The notes below the pieces were generated by a model. It saw only the letters and a program-made list of their open reading frames with translations. It made no database searches and was not told the DNA's origin. Positions 7,765 through 45,933 of a stretch of DNA of 64,000 bases are shown piece after piece; the first letter of the stretch is position 1; every line of letters begins with the position of its first letter. The translations under genes and the position numbers were made by a program. Source of the DNA: an uncultured Coriobacteriales bacterium (GTDB lineage Bacteria; Actinomycetota; Coriobacteriia; Coriobacteriales; QAMH01); contig CAKUES010000006.1 in NCBI GenBank assembly GCA_934646835.1, forward strand, positions 32,533 to 96,532, read 5' to 3'.

Positions 7765-9924
<2,160 letters not shown>

Positions 9925-9967
9925 CAGGCCGACGACTCCGTGCGCAATAGTCTCCGCATGCAAATAG

Positions 9968-10045
9968 AGGGGGCGCCTCCTCGGTGCATGTTCAGGTTCG
10001 AGATCGTTTTAACTCACCTGAACATGCACCGGGGAGGCGCCCCCT
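9968..10045. terminator. Long hairpin between convergent genes (possible bidirectional terminator)
   Basis: 30-nt arms AGGGGGCGCCTCCTCGGTGCATGTTCAGGT / ACCTGAACATGCACCGGGGAGGCGCCCCCT with one mismatch. No clear T-tract. Confidence 0.45.
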
Positions 10046-10073
10046 TGCGTTTGTCGACGTTATGCGCGACTGG

Positions 10074-10379
10074 CTAGTTGACGGGTACCCAACGCTCGAG
10101 GATGAGAAGCGTCTCCTCCTGAGTGCTGACCTGGTGAACTTCGTCTTCGTTGATGTAGGGCGCGCGTCCGATCTCGTTGACAACCGTCTGGGACAGCCTC
10201 CATCCCATCTCACCGTAAAGGTTGAGCAGTTCCTCGATCTTGCCGACGTTTGCGCCGCCATCCATGAGGTCGCTCACTTTGACGACCTTGTATTCAAAGT
10301 AACCGCCGCTTGTGGGACGGCCAGAAGTTGCAAGCTTGTCCGGGCCCTTTGTCGCCAGCGTCTTGTCTTCTTGAGTCAT
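10074..10379 (-). CDS. Small DUF4177-like protein
   Basis: MTQEDK...GGYFEYKVVKV...ELLNLYGEMGWRL resembles the DUF4177 pattern as I recall it. Start taken at the internal ATG at 10379. Preferred over the overlapping + strand ORF 9984-10442. Confidence 0.5.
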   Translation of the reverse strand: MTQEDKTLATKGPDKLATSGRPTSGGYFEYKVVKVSDLMDGGANVGKIEELLNLYGEMGWRLSQTVVNEIGRAPYINEDEVHQVSTQEETLLILERWVPVN

Positions 10380-21858: not shown

Positions 21859-21957
21859 GCGTCCCAAAGGGGACCAGGTCTTTTATGGGACAGAGGGAGC
21901 GGCAGTTTGCTTTTAGCTTGCCTTGTCCCATAAAAGACCTGGTCCCCTTTGGGACGC
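21859..21957. repeat. Family C palindromic element: perfect 34-nt inverted repeat with a 31-nt spacer
   Basis: GCGTCCCAAAGGGGACCAGGTCTTTTATGGGACA (21859-21892) and its exact reverse complement (21924-21957). Confidence 0.85.
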
Positions 21958-22136
21958 TGCGGCGACTCCGCAAGCCATCAATCATCCTTTCTTCTAAATC
22001 AACGGAACGTCAACGCACAGCAGGCGGCAGGTTCTGCTCGAGAAGCGGTAGGCATATAATCAGCAGCGTTTACGAAGAGAGGGAGAGCAAATCGCGGTCT
22101 ACCTGCGGTTTTGCTCGGTTGTTACGGAGTAACTCT

Positions 22137-23162
22137 ATGATTACAAAGCAAGACAGATTCCTCGACTTCCTTGCTCAGGAAGACACCCAATTTGTCATTC
22201 CCGTTTACCAGCGTCCGTATGCATGGACGCCGCGTCAGTGCCGCGAGCTGTGGAAGGACATCGTTCGCGCAGGCGAGCAGGGCACGTCGCACTTTATGAG
22301 CATGGTGCTTTTCCGCGAGGTCGAGGGTTGCACGGGGTCGTTGCGCAAGGTCGACATCATCGACGGCCAGCAGCGCATCGCCACGATGACCATCCTGCTC
22401 AACGTGCTCAAGGAGCATCTTACCAAGACTGGCAAGACCGTGGCCGGCATGACGGCAGATGACATCGCTGCCAAGTTCCTCCAGGTTTCAGATGGAGGCA
22501 GCGTCGAGGCAAAGATCCAGCTGCTGAGCTTCGACCTCAATACGCTTGACGCGGTCATCAACGGCAGCGAGCTTCCCGCCAAGCCTTCGCCGCGCGTCAT
22601 CGACAATTACCGCTTCTTCCAGAAGCAGATGGAGGCCGAGGACTTCGACCTCGAGACCTTCTGGGCGGGCATCGAGCAGCTGCTCGTCATCGACGCGGAG
22701 CTCGGCGCAGATGACAAGGCCCAGGGCATCTTCGAGAGCCTCAACACCAAGGGCATCCCCCTGACCACCGCTGACCTCGTGCGCAACTACCTGCTGGTCG
22801 GCCTGTCGCGCGAGGAACAGGTCCGCCTCTACAACGAGTACTGGAACCCCATCGAGCTTATGTTTGGCGAGGACCGTGACTCCATGAAGCTCAACTCGGG
22901 CCTGCGCATGTGGCTCGACATTCGCTACCGCAAAAAGCGCCTCCATCGAGCGGAGGACACCTACAACTCCTTCAAGGAATACACCATGACGGTGTACAAG
23001 GGCACTGTCGAGGAGCTGCTCGACGAGCTGCGCAGCTTCTGCTTGATGTGGGCCGAGAACTTCAAGTTCAACGAGGTGAAGGCATATCGCACCATGGACT
23101 GGGCCAAGGACGGCCAGCGCAAGAACCTGCTGCCCGGCTGGGGCCACCAAAGCGGCTTCTAG
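22137..23162 (+). CDS. DUF262 (GmrS/ParB-like NTPase) domain protein, no DUF1524 nuclease domain apparent
   Basis: FVIPVYQRPYAW and IIDGQQRIATM motifs. 341 aa. GGAG RBS before ATG 22137. The upstream extension of the track ORF runs through the family C palindrome and was rejected. Confidence 0.8.
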   Translation: MITKQDRFLDFLAQEDTQFVIPVYQRPYAWTPRQCRELWKDIVRAGEQGTSHFMSMVLFREVEGCTGSLRKVDIIDGQQRIATMTILLNVLKEHLTKTGKTVAGMTADDIAAKFLQVSDGGSVEAKIQLLSFDLNTLDAVINGSELPAKPSPRVIDNYRFFQKQMEAEDFDLETFWAGIEQLLVIDAELGADDKAQGIFESLNTKGIPLTTADLVRNYLLVGLSREEQVRLYNEYWNPIELMFGEDRDSMKLNSGLRMWLDIRYRKKRLHRAEDTYNSFKEYTMTVYKGTVEELLDELRSFCLMWAENFKFNEVKAYRTMDWAKDGQRKNLLPGWGHQSGF

Positions 23163-23219
23163 CATGCCGGCGCCTGCGCGCGAAACCTTCCTATCCGCGG
23201 TAACTCGAAAGGATCTTCG

Positions 23220-24299
23220 ATGAAGACCGAACAAGCAACCTACCTGGACTTCCTTGGTGCGGCAAACACCAAGATGGCCATTCCTGTTTTCCAGCGCATG
23301 TATACCTGGAGCCCCTGGCAATGCGAGGAGCTTTGGGAGGACATCATCAATGCCGGTAAGAGTGGCGAGACGCATTTTATCGGCAGCATTATCTACACTT
23401 CCGAGGCGCTTGATGGCACAAACGGTGCAAACGAGCTGCGCAGCATCGTCGACGGCCAGCAGCGCACCACGACGGTGACCTTGCTGTTTATCGCCTTGCG
23501 CGACTGGCTGCGCGAGCACGGCGAGACCTGTGGCCTGACGGCTCAGGCGATCGAGGAGCGCTACCTCTACAACGCGACCCCTGACGGCGGCCGTGCGATG
23601 AAGTTCACCGCTGCCCCTGCCGACCACGAGACCCTCGTCTACATCCTCGAGGGTGGCGAGAAGCCGGAGCGCTACCGCTTCTCCAACCGCATGGACCGTA
23701 ACTATCGCTTCTTTGCCGAGCAGATGGCGGCCGAGGACTTCGAGCTCGAGGTCATGCTCGCCGGCCTGCGCCAGCTCTTTGCGATCATCGTCGAGCTTGG
23801 TGGCGACGACAACCCGCAGCTGATCTTCGAGGGCATCAACTCCAAGGGCATGGCGCTCAACACGGGCGACCTGCTGCGCAACAAACTCTTCTATGGCAAC
23901 GACCAGTCCGAGCAGGAGCGCCTGCTGGTCACGTACTGGGAGCCGATCGAGGCGCTCTTCGAGGAGGACGAGGACGAGAGCCTCTTCAACGCCTGCCTGC
24001 GCATGTGGTTGGTGGGCAAGGACGCCTCGCTCGAGAAGTACACGCCCTACGAGCTCTACAGCGGCTTTCGCAAGTACCTCAACGAATCCTACGAGGGCTC
24101 GACAGAGGATCTGATGAGGGAGCTGCTCGAGCACTGCGAGAACTTCCGCCGCCTGATCAAGAGCCCCATGACCAAGAAGCACATCGACTGGGCGACCGGT
24201 GAGACAGGCTTTGGCAAGGGCTATGGCGTCACCGTGGGCATCGCCACGCGCTCGATGTATCACGCCGCAACCGGCATGCCGACCAAGATGTTTCCCTAG
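23220..24299 (+). CDS. DUF262 (GmrS/ParB-like NTPase) domain protein, paralog of 22137-23162
   Basis: MAIPVFQRMYTW and IVDGQQRTTTV motifs. 359 aa. Alignable with the upstream gene to the C-terminus (NYRFFxxQMxAEDFxLE, YWxPIExxF, xDWA). GAAAGGA RBS. Confidence 0.8.
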   Translation: MKTEQATYLDFLGAANTKMAIPVFQRMYTWSPWQCEELWEDIINAGKSGETHFIGSIIYTSEALDGTNGANELRSIVDGQQRTTTVTLLFIALRDWLREHGETCGLTAQAIEERYLYNATPDGGRAMKFTAAPADHETLVYILEGGEKPERYRFSNRMDRNYRFFAEQMAAEDFELEVMLAGLRQLFAIIVELGGDDNPQLIFEGINSKGMALNTGDLLRNKLFYGNDQSEQERLLVTYWEPIEALFEEDEDESLFNACLRMWLVGKDASLEKYTPYELYSGFRKYLNESYEGSTEDLMRELLEHCENFRRLIKSPMTKKHIDWATGETGFGKGYGVTVGIATRSMYHAATGMPTKMFP

Positions 24300-24312
24300 G
24301 CGCTGAGTTTGC

Positions 24313-24349
24313 GAGGGGGCGGGGCCTTGGGGTCTCGTCCCCCTTTTTT
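24313..24349 (+). terminator. Rho-independent terminator after the DUF262 pair
   Basis: G-rich/C-rich hairpin (GAGGGGGCGG...CGTCCCCC) followed by TTTTTT (24344-24349). Confidence 0.6.
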
Positions 24350-24381
24350 GCGGTTGCAGCGGCAGGAGGATGGGTTCAGGG

Positions 24382-24485
24382 GTGACACACTTTGTGCCAG
24401 TGACAATGTGTGTCACGCCATAGAGCCGCAGGTGTCCCCATGCCTTCTGCGTGACACACATTGTCACTGGCACAAAGTGTGTCAC
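24382..24485. repeat. Family B palindromic element: perfect 37-nt inverted repeat with a 30-nt spacer
   Basis: GTGACACACTTTGTGCCAGTGACAATGTGTGTCACGC (24382-24418) and its exact reverse complement (24449-24485). Confidence 0.85.
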
Positions 24486-24696: not shown

Positions 24697-26652
24697 ATGA
24701 CCCAGAAACTGCTGATGGGAAACGAGGCCTTCGCCCATGCCGCGCTCGAGGCGGGCGTCAACGTTGTGGCTGGTTATCCCGGTACACCATCGTCCGAAGT
24801 AATCGAGACCGTCGCGCGACTGCGCCGCGCTGGCAAGGCGCATGATGTCCACGTCGAGTGGTCCACCAACGAGAAAGCCGCGCTCGAGATGCTGGCGGGT
24901 GCCGCGTACTGCGGTGCGCGCACGCTGTTCACCTGCAAGCAGGTGGGTCTCAACGTCGCAAGCGACCCCTTGATGAGCCTCAACTACGTGGGCGTCAAGG
25001 GCGGCATGGTCCTCTTCGTGGCAGACGACCCGGGCCCCATCTCCTCGCAGACCGAGCAAGACACCCGCCGCTTTGGCTCCTTTGCCAAAGTCCCCGTCTT
25101 CGATCCCTCTACCCCTGACGAGGGCTTTGCGATGATGAAGCAGGCCTACGAGCTCTCTGAGAAGTACTCCTGCCCCGTCATCGTGCGCCCGACGACGCGC
25201 ATCGACCATGCGAGCACCTACTTTGACGTGCAGGAGGAGACCTGCGGTCGTCCTCTGCCCGAGGAGGGCTTCGTAAAAGACCCCAAGTGGATCATCTTCC
25301 CACGCCGCGCCTTCGAGGCCCACGGGGAGATCAACGCCCGCATCGCGGCGATGGCGGAGAACTTCTCTGATGACGCCGCCTACGTGCGCTTCAACCCCAT
25401 CATGCAGGCGGGCGAGGGCAAGCCGAGCATCGGCATCATGGCTGGTGGCGTAAGTGCTGCCTACACCCGCGAGGCGCTTCGTCAGCTGCAGGAGCTGGCC
25501 GATGCTGCTGGTGTCGAGCTGCCTGCTGTCCGCGTGATGCAGGTGGGCACGCCGTATCCCTTCCCCGCAAAGCGTGCCCTCGAGTTCACCGACGGCCTCG
25601 ATGCTGTCCTCGCGCTCGAAGAGCTCGACCATGTGCTCGAAGACGAGCTGCTCAAGCTCGCAGGACGCGAGCACCTTGCGCTCGAGGTGGCGGGCAAGCT
25701 CACGGGCGATGCTCGCGACCGCGGCGAGAACGACACGGACGATGTCATGCGCCGCATCTGCGCCTTTGCCGACGCGCGCTTTGGCACGCAGCTTGTTGAG
25801 CTGCTCCCCGCGGCCGCACCTTACGCATACCCCGATGACGCCCAGGCCCTGCCCGTGCGTCCCCCCGTGCTGTGCGCCGGTTGTCCGCATCGCGGCAGCT
25901 TCTACGCCATCAAGCGTGCGCTCGGTAGGCGCGAGGGCGCCTACTGCGGCGACATCGGCTGCTATACGCTCGGCAATGCCGCGCCGCTGTCTACGACCGA
26001 CACCTGCCTGTGCATGGGCGCGGGCATCACGGTTGCGCAGGGTTTCTCCGTGGTCGAGCCTGGCAAGAAGCAGATTGCCTTCGTCGGTGACAGCACCTTC
26101 TTCGCCAGCGGGCTCACGGGTTGCGCAAACGCCGTCTACAACCAGCATGATGTGACGATCTGCGTGCTCGACAACGCGACGACCGCTATGACGGGTAAGC
26201 AGCCGCATCCCGGCACGGGCGTCACGTTGATGGGAGCGCAAAGCGAGCCGATCAAGATCGACGCCGTGCTCAAGGCGTTGGGCTTTACCTGCATCGTCTA
26301 TGCCGATCCCCTGGACCACGCCGCGGCCGTCGCTGCTGCCAAAGAGGCTATCGACTTCGAGGGTCCGAGCGCGATCATCTTCAGGAGTCCTTGCGTGCAG
26401 CTCATCAAGCCGGCACCTGCTCTGGCGGTCGACACTGAAGCATGCACGGGCTGCAAACTCTGCATCAAGTCCATCGGCTGTCCCGGCGTTGGTTTCGATC
26501 CGGCGAAAACCGGTCCTTTGAGCAAGGAGCGCGGTCAGGCCTTCATTGATCCGAGCCAGTGCAACGGCTGCGGTCTATGCGCCCAGCTGTGCCCGAGCAA
26601 GGCAATTGTTATTCCGGTAGCTGACAAGGGAGAGGGGGCTTGCCGTGCTTAA
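24697..26652 (+). CDS. iorA: Indolepyruvate (arylpyruvate):ferredoxin oxidoreductase, alpha subunit
   Basis: MGNEAFAHAALEAGVNVVAGYPGTPSSE N-terminus, a TPP-binding region (GDSTFFASG) and two C-terminal 4Fe-4S motifs (CTGCKLCIKSIGCP, CNGCGLCAQLCP). Confidence 0.9.
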   Translation: MTQKLLMGNEAFAHAALEAGVNVVAGYPGTPSSEVIETVARLRRAGKAHDVHVEWSTNEKAALEMLAGAAYCGARTLFTCKQVGLNVASDPLMSLNYVGVKGGMVLFVADDPGPISSQTEQDTRRFGSFAKVPVFDPSTPDEGFAMMKQAYELSEKYSCPVIVRPTTRIDHASTYFDVQEETCGRPLPEEGFVKDPKWIIFPRRAFEAHGEINARIAAMAENFSDDAAYVRFNPIMQAGEGKPSIGIMAGGVSAAYTREALRQLQELADAAGVELPAVRVMQVGTPYPFPAKRALEFTDGLDAVLALEELDHVLEDELLKLAGREHLALEVAGKLTGDARDRGENDTDDVMRRICAFADARFGTQLVELLPAAAPYAYPDDAQALPVRPPVLCAGCPHRGSFYAIKRALGRREGAYCGDIGCYTLGNAAPLSTTDTCLCMGAGITVAQGFSVVEPGKKQIAFVGDSTFFASGLTGCANAVYNQHDVTICVLDNATTAMTGKQPHPGTGVTLMGAQSEPIKIDAVLKALGFTCIVYADPLDHAAAVAAAKEAIDFEGPSAIIFRSPCVQLIKPAPALAVDTEACTGCKLCIKSIGCPGVGFDPAKTGPLSKERGQAFIDPSQCNGCGLCAQLCPSKAIVIPVADKGEGACRA

Positions 26653-27250
26653 CGTCCTCATCACCGGCATCGGCGGCCAGGGTACGGTTCTGGCTGCAAA
26701 GCTTCTCGCTCAGGCTGCGCAGACGCGTGGTTGGCAGGTCCGCACGGCAGAGACCATCGGCATGGCCCAGCGAGGTGGTTCCGTCGTGAGCCATGTGCGC
26801 ATGGATAACGGCGGCGAAGAGGTTGCCGCCCCGCTGCTCAACAGCGCAACGGCGGATATGATCATCGCCTTCGAGCCGGGCGAGGCGGCGCGTTGTCTGC
26901 CGTATTTGGCAAGCGGTGGCACGCTCGTCACCGCCAAGAGTGCGGTCCAGCCGATTACTGCCGCGTTGAGCGGCAGCGGCTACAGCAGTGCCGGCGCCAT
27001 CGAAGGGCTGCATGCCGCGCTCGACGGCACGGACGCCAAGCTGTGCGTTGTCGACGACGCCGCCTTGGTGGCGGCAAGCGGGCTGCGCAAAGCCCGCAAC
27101 GTGATGCTGCTCGCCTGCGCGCTCAGCACCGGCGCCGTCCCCATCACAGTCGACGACCTGCGCGATGCCATCCGCGTTTGCGTCAAGCCGAGCTTTGTTG
27201 ACATGAACCTCGCCGCTGTCGATGCCGCCCTCGAGGTGCTGCAGGGGTAG
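26645..27250 (+). CDS. iorB: Indolepyruvate:ferredoxin oxidoreductase, beta subunit
   Basis: ITGIGGQGTVLAAKLLA and AETIGMAQRGGSV motifs of the 2-oxoacid:Fd oxidoreductase gamma-type domain. Overlaps the iorA stop. Confidence 0.85.
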   Translation: MLNVLITGIGGQGTVLAAKLLAQAAQTRGWQVRTAETIGMAQRGGSVVSHVRMDNGGEEVAAPLLNSATADMIIAFEPGEAARCLPYLASGGTLVTAKSAVQPITAALSGSGYSSAGAIEGLHAALDGTDAKLCVVDDAALVAASGLRKARNVMLLACALSTGAVPITVDDLRDAIRVCVKPSFVDMNLAAVDAALEVLQG

Positions 27251-27275
27251 GGACGTGCTACCGGTTTGAGCTTGG

Positions 27276-27310
27276 TTGACACACAATGTGCCAGTGACAA
27301 AGTGTGTCAT
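27276..27310. repeat. Family B element, single arm
   Basis: TTGACACACAATGTGCCAGTGACAAAGTGTGTCAT. Confidence 0.6.
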
Positions 27311-27367
27311 CCTGAGCGCAGTGCGTCGCGCTGGCTGCAACTGCGTAAATTCCGCTCGGGTCGAGTC

Positions 27368-27395
27368 TTGCGCCTTTCGCGAAAACCGCTAGAAT
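27368..27395 (+). promoter_or_regulatory. Putative sigma-70-type promoter for tRNA-Trp
   Basis: TTGCGC (27368-27373), 16 nt spacer, TAGAAT (27390-27395), about 22 nt before the mature tRNA 5' end. Confidence 0.4.
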
Positions 27396-27417
27396 ACTGC
27401 CTTGCGCACTTCAATAC

Positions 27418-27493
27418 ACGCCAGTAGCTCCAATGGTAGAGCGTCGGTCTCCAAAACCGAATGTTGTGGGTTCGAGTCCTACCTGGCGTGCCA
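27418..27493 (+). tRNA. trnW: tRNA-Trp (anticodon CCA), CCA end encoded, discriminator G
   Basis: Manual cloverleaf: acceptor ACGCCAG/CTGGCGT, D arm GCTC-CAATGGTA-GAGC, anticodon arm TCGGT-CTCCAAA-ACCGA, variable loop ATGTT, T arm GTGGG-TTCGAGT-CCTAC, then G-CCA. 76 nt. Confidence 0.95.
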
Positions 27494-27501
27494 GTAAACT
27501 C

Positions 27502-27530
27502 AAAGGCCTCCATCGTGGGGGCCTTTTTTC
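27502..27530 (+). terminator. Rho-independent terminator after tRNA-Trp
   Basis: AGGCCTCC-ATCGT-GGGGGCCT hairpin followed by TTTTTT. Confidence 0.7.
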
Positions 27531-27712
27531 GTGCTCGTCAGTCAACAAATCAGTCTGGCTGAAGTGTTGACTGGCCCGCTGGCCGTGTTTTGTCCACGTC
27601 TTTGCGTGGCTGACGGCCACATTCCCCTCCTGCAAGCGCCTATATCGGCGTACAATCCTTTCAAGCGCTGCTAAACGTCGGCAGCAAGGAGAAAAACATA
27701 GGAGGATGCGTC

Positions 27713-28951
27713 ATGAAGATGACAGACGAGCAGTTTGCGATCATCAAGCGACAGCTCAAGAAACTGACAGAGATCCCCGGTGGCTTCTACGAGAAGAAGT
27801 TCGCAGGCATCGACATCGATGCGATCAAGACCCAAGAGGATTTCGAGAAACTTCCCTTCACTGACAAAGCAGATCTTCGCGAGGCCTACCCGATGGGTCT
27901 GTGCGCCGTCCCGCAAAGCGAGATCGTCCGCGTCCACTCTTCCTCCGGTACCACCGGTACCCCCGTTGTCATTCCCTACACCAAAAAAGATATCGAGGAC
28001 TGGGCCATCCAGTTCGCGCGCTGCTATGAGTACGCAGGCATTACGCGCGACGATGTTATCCAGATTACCCCTGGCTACGGCCTGTGGACTGCCGGCATCG
28101 GCTTCCAGGCCGGTTGCGAGCGCCTGGGCGCTATGGCAATCCCCATGGGCCCCGGCAACACCGACAAGCAGCTTCAGATGATGGAGGACTTTGGCACGAC
28201 GGTCTTTTGCGCCACCAGCTCCTACGCGCTGCTTCTGGCAGAGGAGATCGAGAAGCGCGGCATCCGCGACAAGCTCAAGCTCAAGAAGGGTGTCATCGGC
28301 TCCGAGCGCTGGGGCGAGAAGATGCGCGCCCGCATCGCCAGCGAGCTCGGCGTCGAGCTCTTCGACATCTACGGCTTGACGGAGGTCTACGGCCCTGGCA
28401 TCGGCATCAACTGCAAAGCCAACGGAGCCATGCACATCTGGTCTGACTACCTTTACCTAGAGATTATCGACCCTGAGACCGGCGAGGTCGTCCCCGACGG
28501 CGAGCCAGGCGAGATCGTCCTCACCACGCTCCAGAAGGAGGGTGCGCCGCTCATCCGCTTCCGCACGCACGATTTGTCCCGCATCGTCCCCGGCCCCTGC
28601 GAGTGCGGCAGCCCCCATCCCCGCATCGACATCATCACCGGCCGCACGGACGACATGGTCAAGGTGCGCGGCGTGAATATGTTCCCCGCACAGATCGAGG
28701 AGGTCATCGCCTTTGCCGACGGCGCCTCGAGCGAGTACCAGGTGATGATCGACCACGTCAACGGCCGCGACCACATGACGCTGTTCTTCGAGACCGACCG
28801 CCCCAAGAGCGAGTGGCCCAAGATCGAGGAGAACCTCGCCGCCATCTTCAAGGGCAAGATCGGCATGACCCCGCACGCCAAGGCCGTCGCCATGGGCGAG
28901 CTGCCGCGCAGCCTCAAGAAGACCCGCCGCATCTTCGACAACCGCTACTAA
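27713..28951 (+). CDS. paaK: Phenylacetate-CoA ligase family (aryl-acetate--CoA ligase)
   Basis: 412 aa. LPFTDKADLREAYP, SSGTTGTPVV (AMP-binding P-loop) and the C-terminal KVRGVN motif of PaaK-type adenylate-forming enzymes. Confidence 0.85.
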   Translation: MKMTDEQFAIIKRQLKKLTEIPGGFYEKKFAGIDIDAIKTQEDFEKLPFTDKADLREAYPMGLCAVPQSEIVRVHSSSGTTGTPVVIPYTKKDIEDWAIQFARCYEYAGITRDDVIQITPGYGLWTAGIGFQAGCERLGAMAIPMGPGNTDKQLQMMEDFGTTVFCATSSYALLLAEEIEKRGIRDKLKLKKGVIGSERWGEKMRARIASELGVELFDIYGLTEVYGPGIGINCKANGAMHIWSDYLYLEIIDPETGEVVPDGEPGEIVLTTLQKEGAPLIRFRTHDLSRIVPGPCECGSPHPRIDIITGRTDDMVKVRGVNMFPAQIEEVIAFADGASSEYQVMIDHVNGRDHMTLFFETDRPKSEWPKIEENLAAIFKGKIGMTPHAKAVAMGELPRSLKKTRRIFDNRY

Positions 28952-34630: not shown

Positions 34631-34665
34631 ATGACACAGCGTCACTGGCACAAAGTGTGTCACGC
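34631..34665. repeat. Family B element, single arm
   Basis: ATGACACAGCGTCACTGGCACAAAGTGTGTCACGC. Confidence 0.6.
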
Positions 34666-34814
34666 TCACAGGGCTGTCTGGGCTGTGTGCGCGGACAGAT
34701 TCATGCGATGGTGATATCGGAATAATGCTTGCACTAACGAGCTTGCGCAGTTATCCTAGACAGGCTTGTGTAAATTGCATTGGTCGGTAACCAATGCGGC
34801 TTTAAGGAGACTTA

Positions 34815-45829: not shown

Positions 45830-45933
45830 GTGACACACTTTGTGCCAGTGACATTGTGTTTCACGCCGTCGAATTGCAGGTTAACGCAAGCCCTCTGCGT
45901 GATACACAATGTCACTGGCACAAAGTGTGTCAC
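45830..45933. repeat. Family B palindromic element: 37-nt arms, 30-nt spacer
   Basis: GTGACACACTTTGTGCCAGTGACATTGTGTTTCACGC (45830-45866) and GCGTGATACACAATGTCACTGGCACAAAGTGTGTCAC (45897-45933), with 2 mismatches. Confidence 0.85.

What the first reader, a model, noticed from the sequence alone, without database searches (positions are those of the whole stretch)
21859..24485. Two tandem GmrS-like (DUF262-only) paralogs with no nuclease partner, boxed in by long perfect palindromes
Seen in the sequence:
- CDS 22137-23162 and 23220-24299 both open with the DUF262/ParB-like NTPase signatures: (I/V)P(V/I)(Y/F)QR.Y.W near residue 20-30, and (I/V)DGQQR about 45-55 aa later.
- They remain alignable with each other to their C-termini (NYRFF..QM.AEDF.LE, YW.PIE..F, .DWA..G), and both end at about 340-360 aa.

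Established knowledge: in the characterised members of this family (GmrSD-type type IV restriction enzymes, BrxU, SspE-like proteins) the DUF262 NTPase is fused to, or encoded next to, a DUF1524 His-Me-finger nuclease.

Context seen here:
- I see no His-Me/HNH-like motif in either C-terminus.
- No other plausible ORF lies between the ABC transporter (ends 21821) and iorA (starts 24697).
- Both copies stop at homologous positions, so the short form was duplicated as such rather than arising from two independent truncations.
- The pair has a TATAAT box (22055-22060) and its own terminator (24313-24349).
- It is bracketed by a perfect 34-nt inverted repeat (21859-21957) and a perfect 37-nt inverted repeat (24382-24485).
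- It interrupts otherwise metabolic context.

Inference: a nuclease-less two-NTPase module. It could be a candidate new defence or DNA-modification-sensing pair, a system whose effector is encoded elsewhere, or a decoy. This is my best candidate for an undescribed system in the window.
Basis: partly seen in the sequence, partly recalled or inferred. Interest (0 to 1): 0.7.

Follow-up and report, generated by a model that had tools for sequence, protein, structure and literature searches.

The report
Nuclease-less GmrSD-derived DUF262 gene pair
Two adjacent, selectively maintained genes encode only the nucleotide-binding DNA-sensor half of a GmrSD-type anti-phage restriction enzyme and no DNA-cutting half; the pair is widespread in Coriobacteriia gut bacteria, has not been characterised, and may be a restriction enzyme converted to a non-cutting role.

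Summary
ORF1 (22137-23162, 341 aa) and ORF2 (23220-24299, 359 aa) are 40% identical DUF262/GmrSD_N proteins. Both keep intact QRxxxW, DGQQR and FxxxN NTPase motifs, and neither has a DUF1524 nuclease. They are not remnants: dN/dS is 0.18-0.25, and no nuclease-half sequence exists in any frame of the 64-kb window. The short form is a monophyletic family that appears confined to Coriobacteriia (about 45-50 clusters at 50% identity). Its nearest relatives are ~700-aa full GmrSD enzymes, which it matches only over residues 1-305. An ORF1-type and a partner-type paralogue sit together in 11 of 14 contexts, with different neighbours and no conserved nuclease. Eggerthellaceae versions have a conserved divergent TetR regulator. 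Some ORF1-type proteins carry a C-type-lectin-like DUF6273 domain where the nuclease would be. The flanking palindromes are incidental: the right one is a dispersed repeat, and neither is conserved in syntenic relatives. GC, synteny and context indicate a vertically inherited chromosomal operon, not an inserted island. Best reading: a heteromeric, NTP-gated DNA-binding sensor descended from GmrSD that works without its own nuclease. Closest characterised analogue: TgvAB. Verdict: new variant of a known kind; function untested.

The parts
22055..22060 (+). -10 box TATAAT of the pair's promoter
   Evidence: Read directly. A TATAAT at the equivalent position upstream of the ORF1 orthologue is conserved in L006 and L009. 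The strict two-hexamer scan found no full sigma-70 match because the -35 is weak.
22061..22136 (+). 5' leader with conserved block (CTGCGGTTTTnCT...) and Shine-Dalgarno-like GGAG
   Evidence: The leader sequence just upstream of the ATG is conserved between the window, L006 and L009.
22137..23162 (+). ORF1, 'A-type' short DUF262 protein (341 aa): ParB-like NTPase domain (res ~10-220), four further helices (res 225-311) and a short-form-specific tail
   Evidence: Pfam GmrSD_N E=7e-32. PADLOC Orf5 model (543 positions) matched only at positions 4-294. 35% identical to residues 9-311 of a 704-aa GmrSD. AF2 model pLDDT 81.8, with top PDB folds the N-terminal halves of DndI and SspE. dN/dS 0.18-0.25.
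22362..22376 (+). ORF1 DGQQR motif (D76-R80), the nucleotide-binding/hydrolysis motif II
   Evidence: Read directly. Invariant in all 56 A-type sequences examined. The equivalent Q79A/R80A mutations abolish defence in HEC-06 (10.1101/2024.01.29.577857).
23220..24299 (+). ORF2, 'B-type' short DUF262 protein (359 aa), paralogue of ORF1; own RBS (GAAAGGA), 57 nt after the ORF1 stop
   Evidence: Pfam GmrSD_N E=5e-29. 40% identical to ORF1. It has its own orthologue family of ~27 clusters of 339-414 aa, plus one 264-aa cluster, all DUF262-only. dN/dS 0.18-0.24.
23451..23465 (+). ORF2 DGQQR motif (D78-R82)
   Evidence: Read directly. Invariant in all 31 B-type sequences.
24315..24349 (+). Intrinsic terminator of the pair (12-bp G+C-rich stem, loop 4, T-run)
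   Evidence: Terminator scan. RNA fold -26.2 kcal/mol, z=-2.4.

Best explanation
The two genes form a bicistronic operon. They encode a heteromeric (A/B) ParB-like NTPase that descends from a GmrSD-type type IV restriction enzyme and has lost the DUF1524 His-Me nuclease and the distal half of the helical linker. Shown: both proteins keep the complete nucleotide pocket (QRxxxW, DGQQR, FxxxN). Both are under purifying selection. The two paralogue lineages are ancient, evolve at similar rates and are usually adjacent. No nuclease is encoded in or next to them in any context examined. Inferred: the two proteins associate, as BrxU and SspE dimerise and as TgvA needs TgvB. They bind DNA through the DUF262 domain plus the retained proximal linker helices (the start of the region called ParBDB in Menshen NsnA). 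They use NTP binding and hydrolysis as a conformational switch on recognising a particular DNA state, most likely a base or backbone modification, as in their relatives. Because there is no intrinsic or conserved neighbouring effector, the most likely output is non-nucleolytic: occupancy or clamping of the recognised DNA, or signalling to other factors. This makes it a domesticated, vertically inherited chromosomal function of Coriobacteriia rather than a mobile defence cassette. The flanking palindromes are unrelated intergenic hairpin elements.
For: Domain content: PF03235 only. PADLOC GmrSD-like models of 543-570 positions are matched only over their first ~300 positions. Nearest non-Coriobacteriia relatives are ~560-860-aa proteins with DUF262 (1-225), a linker, DUF1524 (415-555) and DUF5655/DUF4268/RAMA; they align to query residues 1-305. 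No nuclease: an HMM built from the linker+DUF1524 half of 56 long relatives, run with filters off, gave no hit in six frames of the window and L001-L015. Fold: DndI and SspE N-terminal halves, E 6e-11 to 1e-7, and nothing else significant. Selection: dN/dS 0.18-0.25 for both genes versus 0.13 (iorA) and 0.24 (ABC ATPase); in ORF1 the post-DUF262 part is the more constrained, 0.11-0.16. Motifs are invariant in A (56), B (31) and B' (10) sequences. The short forms are monophyletic, and each pair has one A plus one non-A member, with matching branching order and near-equal divergence (A 77-83%, B 75-84% identity). Pairing was seen in 11 of 14 contexts, with 10-57 nt gaps in most tandem pairs and otherwise unrelated neighbours. 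Vertical and chromosomal: GC 0.57-0.65 versus 0.60-0.68 in the flanks; conserved synteny in L006-L009; only long-type relatives at 38% identity or less on viral contigs; housekeeping neighbours. Precedents for DUF262 as a sensor without its own nuclease: TgvA, NsnA, Dazbog, PD-T4-2.
Against: No direct evidence for heteromerisation, DNA binding, NTP hydrolysis or any phenotype. Three contexts have an A-type gene alone (L012, L013, L255), so the partner is not obligatory. Only about the first four helices of the eight-helix ParBDB/linker domain are retained, so DNA binding by that part is uncertain. A trans-acting nuclease elsewhere in the genome cannot be excluded with one 64-kb window. The ORF1 model has pTM 0.61 and a disordered tail.
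Confidence: 0.45

Rival explanations
1. Split type IV restriction system: the pair is the modification-sensing, NTPase half of a GmrSD/TgvAB-like defence system, and its nuclease (a GmrD-like DUF1524 protein, a full-length GmrSD or another effector) is encoded elsewhere in the genome and recruited in trans.
For: The closest homologues are validated defence nucleases (PADLOC Orf5/HEC-06, E down to 1.7e-64). TgvA is a DUF262-only protein essential for TgvB-mediated restriction, and both DGQQR motifs are needed. Full-length GmrSD genes exist in Coriobacteriia (L056, L064, L078, L083). The GmrSD phylogenomics paper notes that DUF262 proteins tend to neighbour other GmrSD homologues while GmrD-domain proteins localise in separate genome regions.
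Against: No DUF1524 or long GmrSD lies within 64 kb in the window or within about 4-8 kb of the short genes in the 14 contexts. Defence partners are normally adjacent. The family is syntenic, vertically inherited and has host-like GC, unlike typical patchy defence genes. TetR-type regulation in Eggerthellaceae is unusual for restriction systems.
Confidence: 0.22
2. Non-defence housekeeping or regulatory role: a ParB/DndB-like NTP-dependent DNA-binding regulator or chromosome-associated factor, or another ParB/Srx-fold enzyme activity, unrelated to foreign DNA.
For: Apparently confined to one bacterial class, conserved position, purifying selection comparable to metabolic neighbours, no mobile-element signatures. 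A conserved divergent TetR-family regulator with invariant cysteines in five Eggerthellaceae contexts suggests ligand- or stress-controlled expression. DndB, a ParB-like relative, is a transcriptional regulator (established knowledge; mentioned).
Against: 35% identity to bona fide GmrSD sensor domains, with all sensor/NTPase motifs invariant. Fusion of some A-type proteins to DUF6273, a C-type-lectin-fold domain typical of arms-race, hypervariable ligand binders. Not universal: 80 iorA-anchored loci of other gut Coriobacteriia lack it locally, and singles exist.
Confidence: 0.25
3. Decaying remnants: two frameshifted or truncated pseudogene fragments of full-length GmrSD genes.
For: Both match only the N-terminal ~55% of full-length models.
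Against: dN/dS 0.18-0.25, with the C-terminal part at least as constrained. The same lengths recur in dozens of independent contigs. The short forms share a conserved tail absent from the long forms (W322; N308 in the A-type). No nuclease-half remnant in any frame. Intact promoter, RBS and terminator.
Confidence: 0.02
4. Mobile cassette delimited by the two long palindromes, inserted between the ABC operon and iorAB.
For: Perfect 34- and 37-nt inverted repeats flank the pair. The pair is inverted relative to both flanks in L006-L008 compared with the window and L009.
Against: The two palindromes are unrelated to each other. The right one is a dispersed ~104-nt element (45830-45933, plus half copies). 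L009 has the pair in the same place with no palindromes, and L006 has a different imperfect element on one side only. Neither occurs in any of 257 fetched loci. GC is host-like. No transposase or integrase ORF lies in the interval.
Confidence: 0.03

Closest known systems
[quoted passage not shown]
   Same: Two adjacent DUF262 paralogues in one operon, each with intact QR/DGQQR/FxxxN motifs. TgvA, like both proteins here, lacks DUF1524.
   Different: TgvB carries the DUF1524 His-Me nuclease that executes restriction, whereas here neither partner has one. TgvAB is embedded in a type I R-M cluster on a pathogenicity island, whereas this pair sits in housekeeping context and is vertically inherited.
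Single-chain GmrSD-like type IV restriction enzymes (Eco94GmrSD, BrxU/HEC-05, HEC-06, PADLOC 'Orf5' models; ~700-aa DUF262-linker-DUF1524-DUF5655/DUF4268/RAMA proteins)
   Same: 30-37% identity over residues 1-305. Same motifs; the DGQQR falls at the same residue numbers as in HEC-06 (Q79, R80). Same proximal linker helices.
   Different: Lacks the distal linker, the DUF1524 nuclease and the C-terminal accessory domains. Has a family-specific ~35-residue tail. Occurs as two diverged paralogues rather than one homodimerising chain. I could not establish which defence system PADLOC's 'Orf5' label refers to.
SspE and DndI (phosphorothioate-sensing DUF262-DUF1524 nickases/nucleases)
   Same: Best structural matches of the ORF1 model (9jfl E=6e-11; 6jiv, 7drs E~1e-7), covering their N-terminal sensor/NTPase halves.
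   Different: 13-18% sequence identity only. No nuclease domain. No ssp/dnd modification genes among the annotated neighbours.
Menshen NsnA (also the Dazbog and PD-T4-2 DUF262 proteins)
   Same: DUF262 proteins without DUF1524, proposed to act as DNA sensors; architecture of ParB-DUF262 followed by a helical DNA-binding region.
   Different: Menshen requires NsnB (ABC ATPase) and NsnC (nuclease effector) immediately downstream, and nothing comparable is adjacent here. PADLOC's best matches are GmrSD-type models, not these families.
DndB
   Same: ParB-like NTP-binding protein without a nuclease that acts by DNA binding and regulation (established knowledge).
   Different: DndB has the DGQHR variant motif and is part of dnd clusters. 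Here the motif is DGQQR and no dnd genes are nearby.

Membership tests
DUF262 / GmrS (ParB-like NTPase) superfamily | PF03235 match above the gathering threshold | tested here: met
   111.6 and 102.2 bits versus a cut-off of 33.2.
DUF262 / GmrS (ParB-like NTPase) superfamily | Three motifs: QRxxxW, DGQQR, FxxxN | tested here: met
   Present in both ORFs. Invariant across 97 short-family sequences. Motif definitions.
GmrSD-type type IV restriction enzyme | DUF1524 His-Me finger nuclease fused to, or encoded next to, the DUF262 domain | tested here: not met
   No PF07510 or HNH hit at E<=1. A custom linker+DUF1524 HMM with filters off finds nothing in six frames of the 64-kb window or L001-L015. 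The model shows only helices after residue 225.
GmrSD-type type IV restriction enzyme | Modification-dependent, NTP-stimulated DNA cleavage | not testable with these tools
   Requires biochemistry.
TgvAB-like two-gene system | Two adjacent DUF262 genes, both with DGQQR | tested here: met
TgvAB-like two-gene system | One partner (TgvB) carries DUF1524 | tested here: not met
   Also not met in any of the 11 paired contexts.
TgvAB-like two-gene system | Embedded in, or next to, an R-M or defence cluster | tested here: not met
   Neighbours are Rho, an Opp-like ABC transporter, iorAB, tRNA-Trp and a PaaK-like ligase.
Menshen (NsnABC) | NsnA-like DUF262 gene followed by an NsnB ABC-ATPase and an NsnC effector | tested here: not met
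   The gene after ORF1 is another DUF262 gene, then a terminator and iorA. The upstream ABC_tran genes belong to a solute-binding-protein/permease transporter operon.
SspABCD-SspE / DndBCDE-DndI | Linked phosphorothioate modification genes and a DUF1524 nickase domain | tested here: not met
   No such genes among the annotated neighbours. No DUF1524. Only the fold of the N-terminal half matches.
DndB-like regulators | DGQHR motif and dnd-cluster context | tested here: not met
   The motif is DGQQR in all members. No dnd context.

The most novel reading that the evidence does not exclude
A restriction enzyme turned into a non-cutting machine. In the ancestor of Coriobacteriia, a GmrSD enzyme lost its nuclease, duplicated, and was fixed as a chromosomal A/B heterodimeric NTP-gated DNA clamp or sensor. 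It acts on modified or foreign DNA without cleavage, by occlusion, silencing or signalling. Its output end is modular, as shown by lineages that fuse a C-type-lectin (DGR-target-type) DUF6273 domain in the nuclease's place or put the operon under a cysteine-rich TetR regulator.
Probability: 0.2. Interest if true: 0.75.

Novelty: new variant of a known kind. Interest (0 to 1): 0.5.

Why it matters
GmrSD-like enzymes are viewed as sensor plus nuclease fusions, and the known nuclease-less DUF262 proteins (TgvA, NsnA, Dazbog, PD-T4-2) all sit beside an effector. A selectively maintained, class-wide pair that has the sensor/NTPase half twice and no effector nearby would show one of two things: either the DUF262 module has a biological output of its own, or defence sensors and effectors can be unlinked in the genome. 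Either result bears on how modification-dependent restriction works and on how defence genes become domesticated. The family is abundant in human-gut Coriobacteriia (for example, it is present in a Gordonibacter genome), so it may influence phage susceptibility and genetic tractability of these bacteria.

Tried and rejected
1. Frameshifted or truncated GmrSD: rejected by dN/dS, recurrent lengths, a conserved family-specific tail and the absence of any nuclease-half remnant.
2. Palindromes as cassette ends: rejected, because the right one is dispersed and neither is conserved in relatives.
3. Presence/absence test between the ABC operon and iorAB: the three closest lineages all have the pair. 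An iorA-anchored metagenome scan returned only relatives at 59-71% identity with neither the pair nor the ABC operon nearby, so it could not give an empty-site comparison.
It was still useful for showing that the nearest outgroups are ~700-aa GmrSD proteins.
5. Viral contigs: only distant long-type relatives.
6. NCBIfam: no informative hit.
7. DUF6273 fusion protein: the AF2 model was too poor in that domain (pLDDT 30-60) for a fold search, and the PDB sequence search was empty. I relied on the published C-type-lectin assignment. No DGR template repeat or RT was seen within the 13.8-kb L001 locus.
9. Heterodimer prediction was not possible, because the tool folds single chains only.
10. I could not establish what PADLOC's 'Orf5' label refers to.
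Full report
OBSERVATION. The window has two co-directional ORFs at 22137-23162 (341 aa) and 23220-24299 (359 aa). They are 40% identical over 331 residues (E=2e-79), and the alignment runs to a shared DWA motif near residue 323/325. Pfam finds only PF03235 (GmrSD_N/DUF262) in each, at residues ~10-224, with no nuclease family even at E<=1. The TATAAT at 22055-22060, the terminator hairpin at 24315-24342 and the two perfect inverted repeats (34 nt at 21859-21957, 37 nt at 24382-24485) are all present.

WHAT THE PROTEINS ARE. PADLOC's best matches are GmrSD-like models ('Orf5' at 1.7e-64 and 3e-58, and HEC-06). These models are 543-570 positions long, and only positions ~4-300 are matched. A scan of species-representative genomes showed that the nearest relatives outside Coriobacteriia are single ORFs, mostly ~560-860 aa, from many phyla, and they align to query residues 1-305 only. 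Nine of ten long relatives scanned with Pfam have DUF262 (1-225), a helical linker, the DUF1524 nuclease (~415-555) and usually DUF5655, DUF4268 or RAMA. ORF1 is 35% identical to residues 9-311 of one such 704-aa enzyme (E=1e-53). The AF2 model of ORF1 (pLDDT 81.8) shows the DUF262 alpha/beta core, then four helices (225-311) and a disordered tail. Its only significant PDB matches are the N-terminal halves of DndI and SspE. So each protein equals the sensor/NTPase domain plus roughly the first half of the linker of a GmrSD enzyme. The Menshen analysis calls that linker region ParBDB, an eight-helix DNA-binding domain (PMC12065111).

NOT REMNANTS, AND NO HIDDEN NUCLEASE. I built an HMM from the linker+DUF1524 halves of 56 long relatives and searched it with all filters off. 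It found nothing in six frames of the 64-kb window or of 15 related loci. Orthologue comparisons (window versus L009 versus L006) give dN/dS of 0.18-0.25 for both genes, similar to iorA (0.13) and the ABC ATPase (0.24). In ORF1 the post-DUF262 part is the more constrained, at 0.11-0.16. The QRxxxW, DGQQR and FxxxN motifs are invariant in all 97 short-family sequences examined. The short forms also share conserved tail residues (W322; N308 in the A-type) that the long enzymes lack. In the validated defence protein HEC-06, Q79A and R80A in the same motif, at the same residue numbers, abolish activity (10.1101/2024.01.29.577857).

A CONSERVED FAMILY, USUALLY PAIRED. ORF1 has many homologues of 334-375 aa, and ORF2 has its own set of ~27 clusters of 339-414 aa, plus one of 264 aa. 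All named hits come from Coriobacteriia, including Gordonibacter, Eggerthellaceae and Coriobacteriales. An exhaustive HMM search of 1.84 billion representatives shows ~45-50 clusters at 50% identity that match the full profile including the tail. After that the hits switch abruptly to ~700-aa GmrSD proteins matching only positions 1-305. In a neighbour-joining tree the short proteins are monophyletic relative to long GmrSD. They split into an A clade (ORF1-like), a B clade (ORF2-like) and a third partner group, and every paired locus contributes one A and one non-A member. A and B orthologues have matching branching order and near-identical divergence (A 77-83%, B 75-84% identity). Pairing occurs in 11 of 14 genomic contexts, mostly in tandem with 10-57 nt gaps and once divergent. 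Three contexts have an A gene alone. This fits one ancient loss of the nuclease, then duplication and long co-retention, which is what a heteromer would predict.

CONTEXT. In the window the neighbours are Rho, an Opp-type ABC transporter operon, iorAB, tRNA-Trp and a PaaK-like ligase. GC is 0.57-0.65 against 0.60-0.68 in the flanks. The two closest sequenced lineages (76-77% identity) keep the pair between the same ABC operon and iorAB. So it is vertically inherited and not a recent insertion. Elsewhere the neighbours are unrelated: hexapeptide transferase/GGDEF, TrmO/M23 peptidase, MFS transporters. No nuclease, helicase, methyltransferase or ATPase is consistently adjacent. The one recurrent neighbour is a divergently transcribed TetR-family regulator of 184-189 aa in the four verified cases. 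It scores 30-40 bits for TetR_N against a cut-off of 24, the copies are 35-60% identical to each other, and it has three invariant cysteines. It lies immediately upstream of the pair in five Eggerthellaceae-type contexts, the fifth (L015) detected by the TetR HMM, and is absent from the window lineage. Eighty iorA-anchored loci from other gut Coriobacteriia have no DUF262 gene nearby, so there is no functional tie to iorAB. Viral contigs hold only distant long-type relatives.

THE PALINDROMES. They are unrelated to each other. The right one belongs to a ~104-nt dispersed hairpin element, with a second full copy at 45830-45933 and half copies at 27276 and 34640. The left one is single-copy in the window and sits directly after the ABC operon stop, with terminator-like sub-hairpins on both strands. 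L009 has the pair in the same place without any palindrome. L006 has a different, imperfect element on one side. Neither sequence occurs in any of 257 fetched loci. They are genome-specific intergenic elements and not part of the module.

MECHANISM. Shown: a promoter-to-terminator bicistronic unit; two diverged, selected DUF262 proteins with intact nucleotide pockets; no nuclease in cis. Inferred from the family (BrxU, SspE, HEC-06 and TgvAB): the proteins associate, bind NTP and DNA, and switch conformation on recognising a DNA feature, probably a modification. Since no effector is fused or conserved nearby, I favour a non-nucleolytic output, either occupancy/clamping or signalling (confidence 0.45). 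Two rivals remain serious. One is a trans-encoded nuclease partner, i.e. a split restriction system (0.22). The other is a non-defence regulatory or chromosomal role (0.25). Pseudogene remnants (0.02) and a palindrome-bounded cassette (0.03) are effectively excluded.

COMPARISON AND NOVELTY. The closest characterised system in organisation is TgvAB, an adjacent DUF262-only protein plus a DUF262-DUF1524 protein, both required for defence. Here both partners are of the TgvA kind. Other DUF262 proteins without DUF1524 (NsnA, Dazbog, PD-T4-2) are known, and Menshen couples NsnA to adjacent NsnB and NsnC effector genes. The pair belongs to the DUF262 superfamily but fails the defining nuclease criterion of GmrSD, TgvAB and SspE/DndI, and the gene-neighbourhood criterion of Menshen. 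I found no paper describing a conserved DUF262-only pair. I rate it a new variant of a known kind, with moderate interest (0.5), because the evidence for an unusual architecture is solid but the function is entirely untested.

SIDE OBSERVATION RELEVANT TO FUNCTION. In some Coriobacteriia the A-type protein is 567-587 aa and carries a C-terminal DUF6273 domain (residues ~410-585) where GmrSD has its nuclease. Published structure comparisons describe DUF6273 as a C-type-lectin-like fold that carries the variable region of diversity-generating-retroelement targets in gut phages (PMC10743442, PMC11792537). This suggests that the C-terminus of the short protein is a modular attachment point for ligand-binding or output domains.

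Noticed in passing
window 24382-24485; 45830-45933; 27276-27299; 34640-34663: A dispersed ~104-nt palindromic element (37-nt perfect arms, ~30-nt partly conserved loop). It has two full copies and two half copies in 64 kb, all apparently intergenic, and resembles a REP/MITE-like hairpin family. It is absent from all 257 related loci fetched.
   Followed up: partly
window 21859-21957: A perfect 34-nt-arm hairpin (-82.5 kcal/mol) directly after the ABC-transporter operon stop. It contains terminator-like sub-hairpins with T-runs on both strands and is single-copy in the window. It is probably a bidirectional terminator or a genome-specific element rather than part of the DUF262 module.
   Followed up: partly
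L006-L008 (pair at 8001-10214) versus window and L009: The whole pair, with its promoter, is inverted relative to both the ABC operon and iorAB in one lineage but not in the window or L009. This implies a ~2.5-kb inversion with breakpoints in both intergenic regions.
   Followed up: partly
L010 7270-7839, L015 3071-3766, L253 7327-7881, L254 7322-7885, L256 6211-6774 (all - strand): A conserved TetR-family regulator with three invariant cysteines, divergently transcribed immediately upstream of the DUF262 pair in Eggerthellaceae-type genomes. The ~115-nt intergenic regions share a TGTnCGATA-like motif that could be its operator.
   Followed up: partly
L001 6001-7764 (P0046); also P0036, P0049, P0065, P0109: A-type short DUF262 proteins fused to a C-terminal DUF6273 domain (C-type-lectin-like, a typical DGR target domain). 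No reverse transcriptase or template repeat was found within the 13.8-kb L001 locus.
   Followed up: partly
window 34777-34809: Rfam L31-Coriobacteria ribosomal-protein leader (35.5 bits, gathering score 33). This independently indicates that the window comes from a Coriobacteriia genome.
   Followed up: no
window 24697-28951: iorA-iorB (indolepyruvate:ferredoxin oxidoreductase), then tRNA-Trp (27418-27493), then a PaaK-like AMP-binding ligase. The same iorAB plus ligase association recurs in L006. It is probably an aromatic amino acid to arylacetate pathway.
   Followed up: no
L010 12079-17083 and L253 12211-17083: Downstream of the Eggerthellaceae pair lies a conserved trio: an AAA_5 ATPase fused to a SAM methyltransferase (769-813 aa), a DUF2201 protein and a large LRR_5 protein. 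It is not adjacent to the pair and was not analysed.
   Followed up: no
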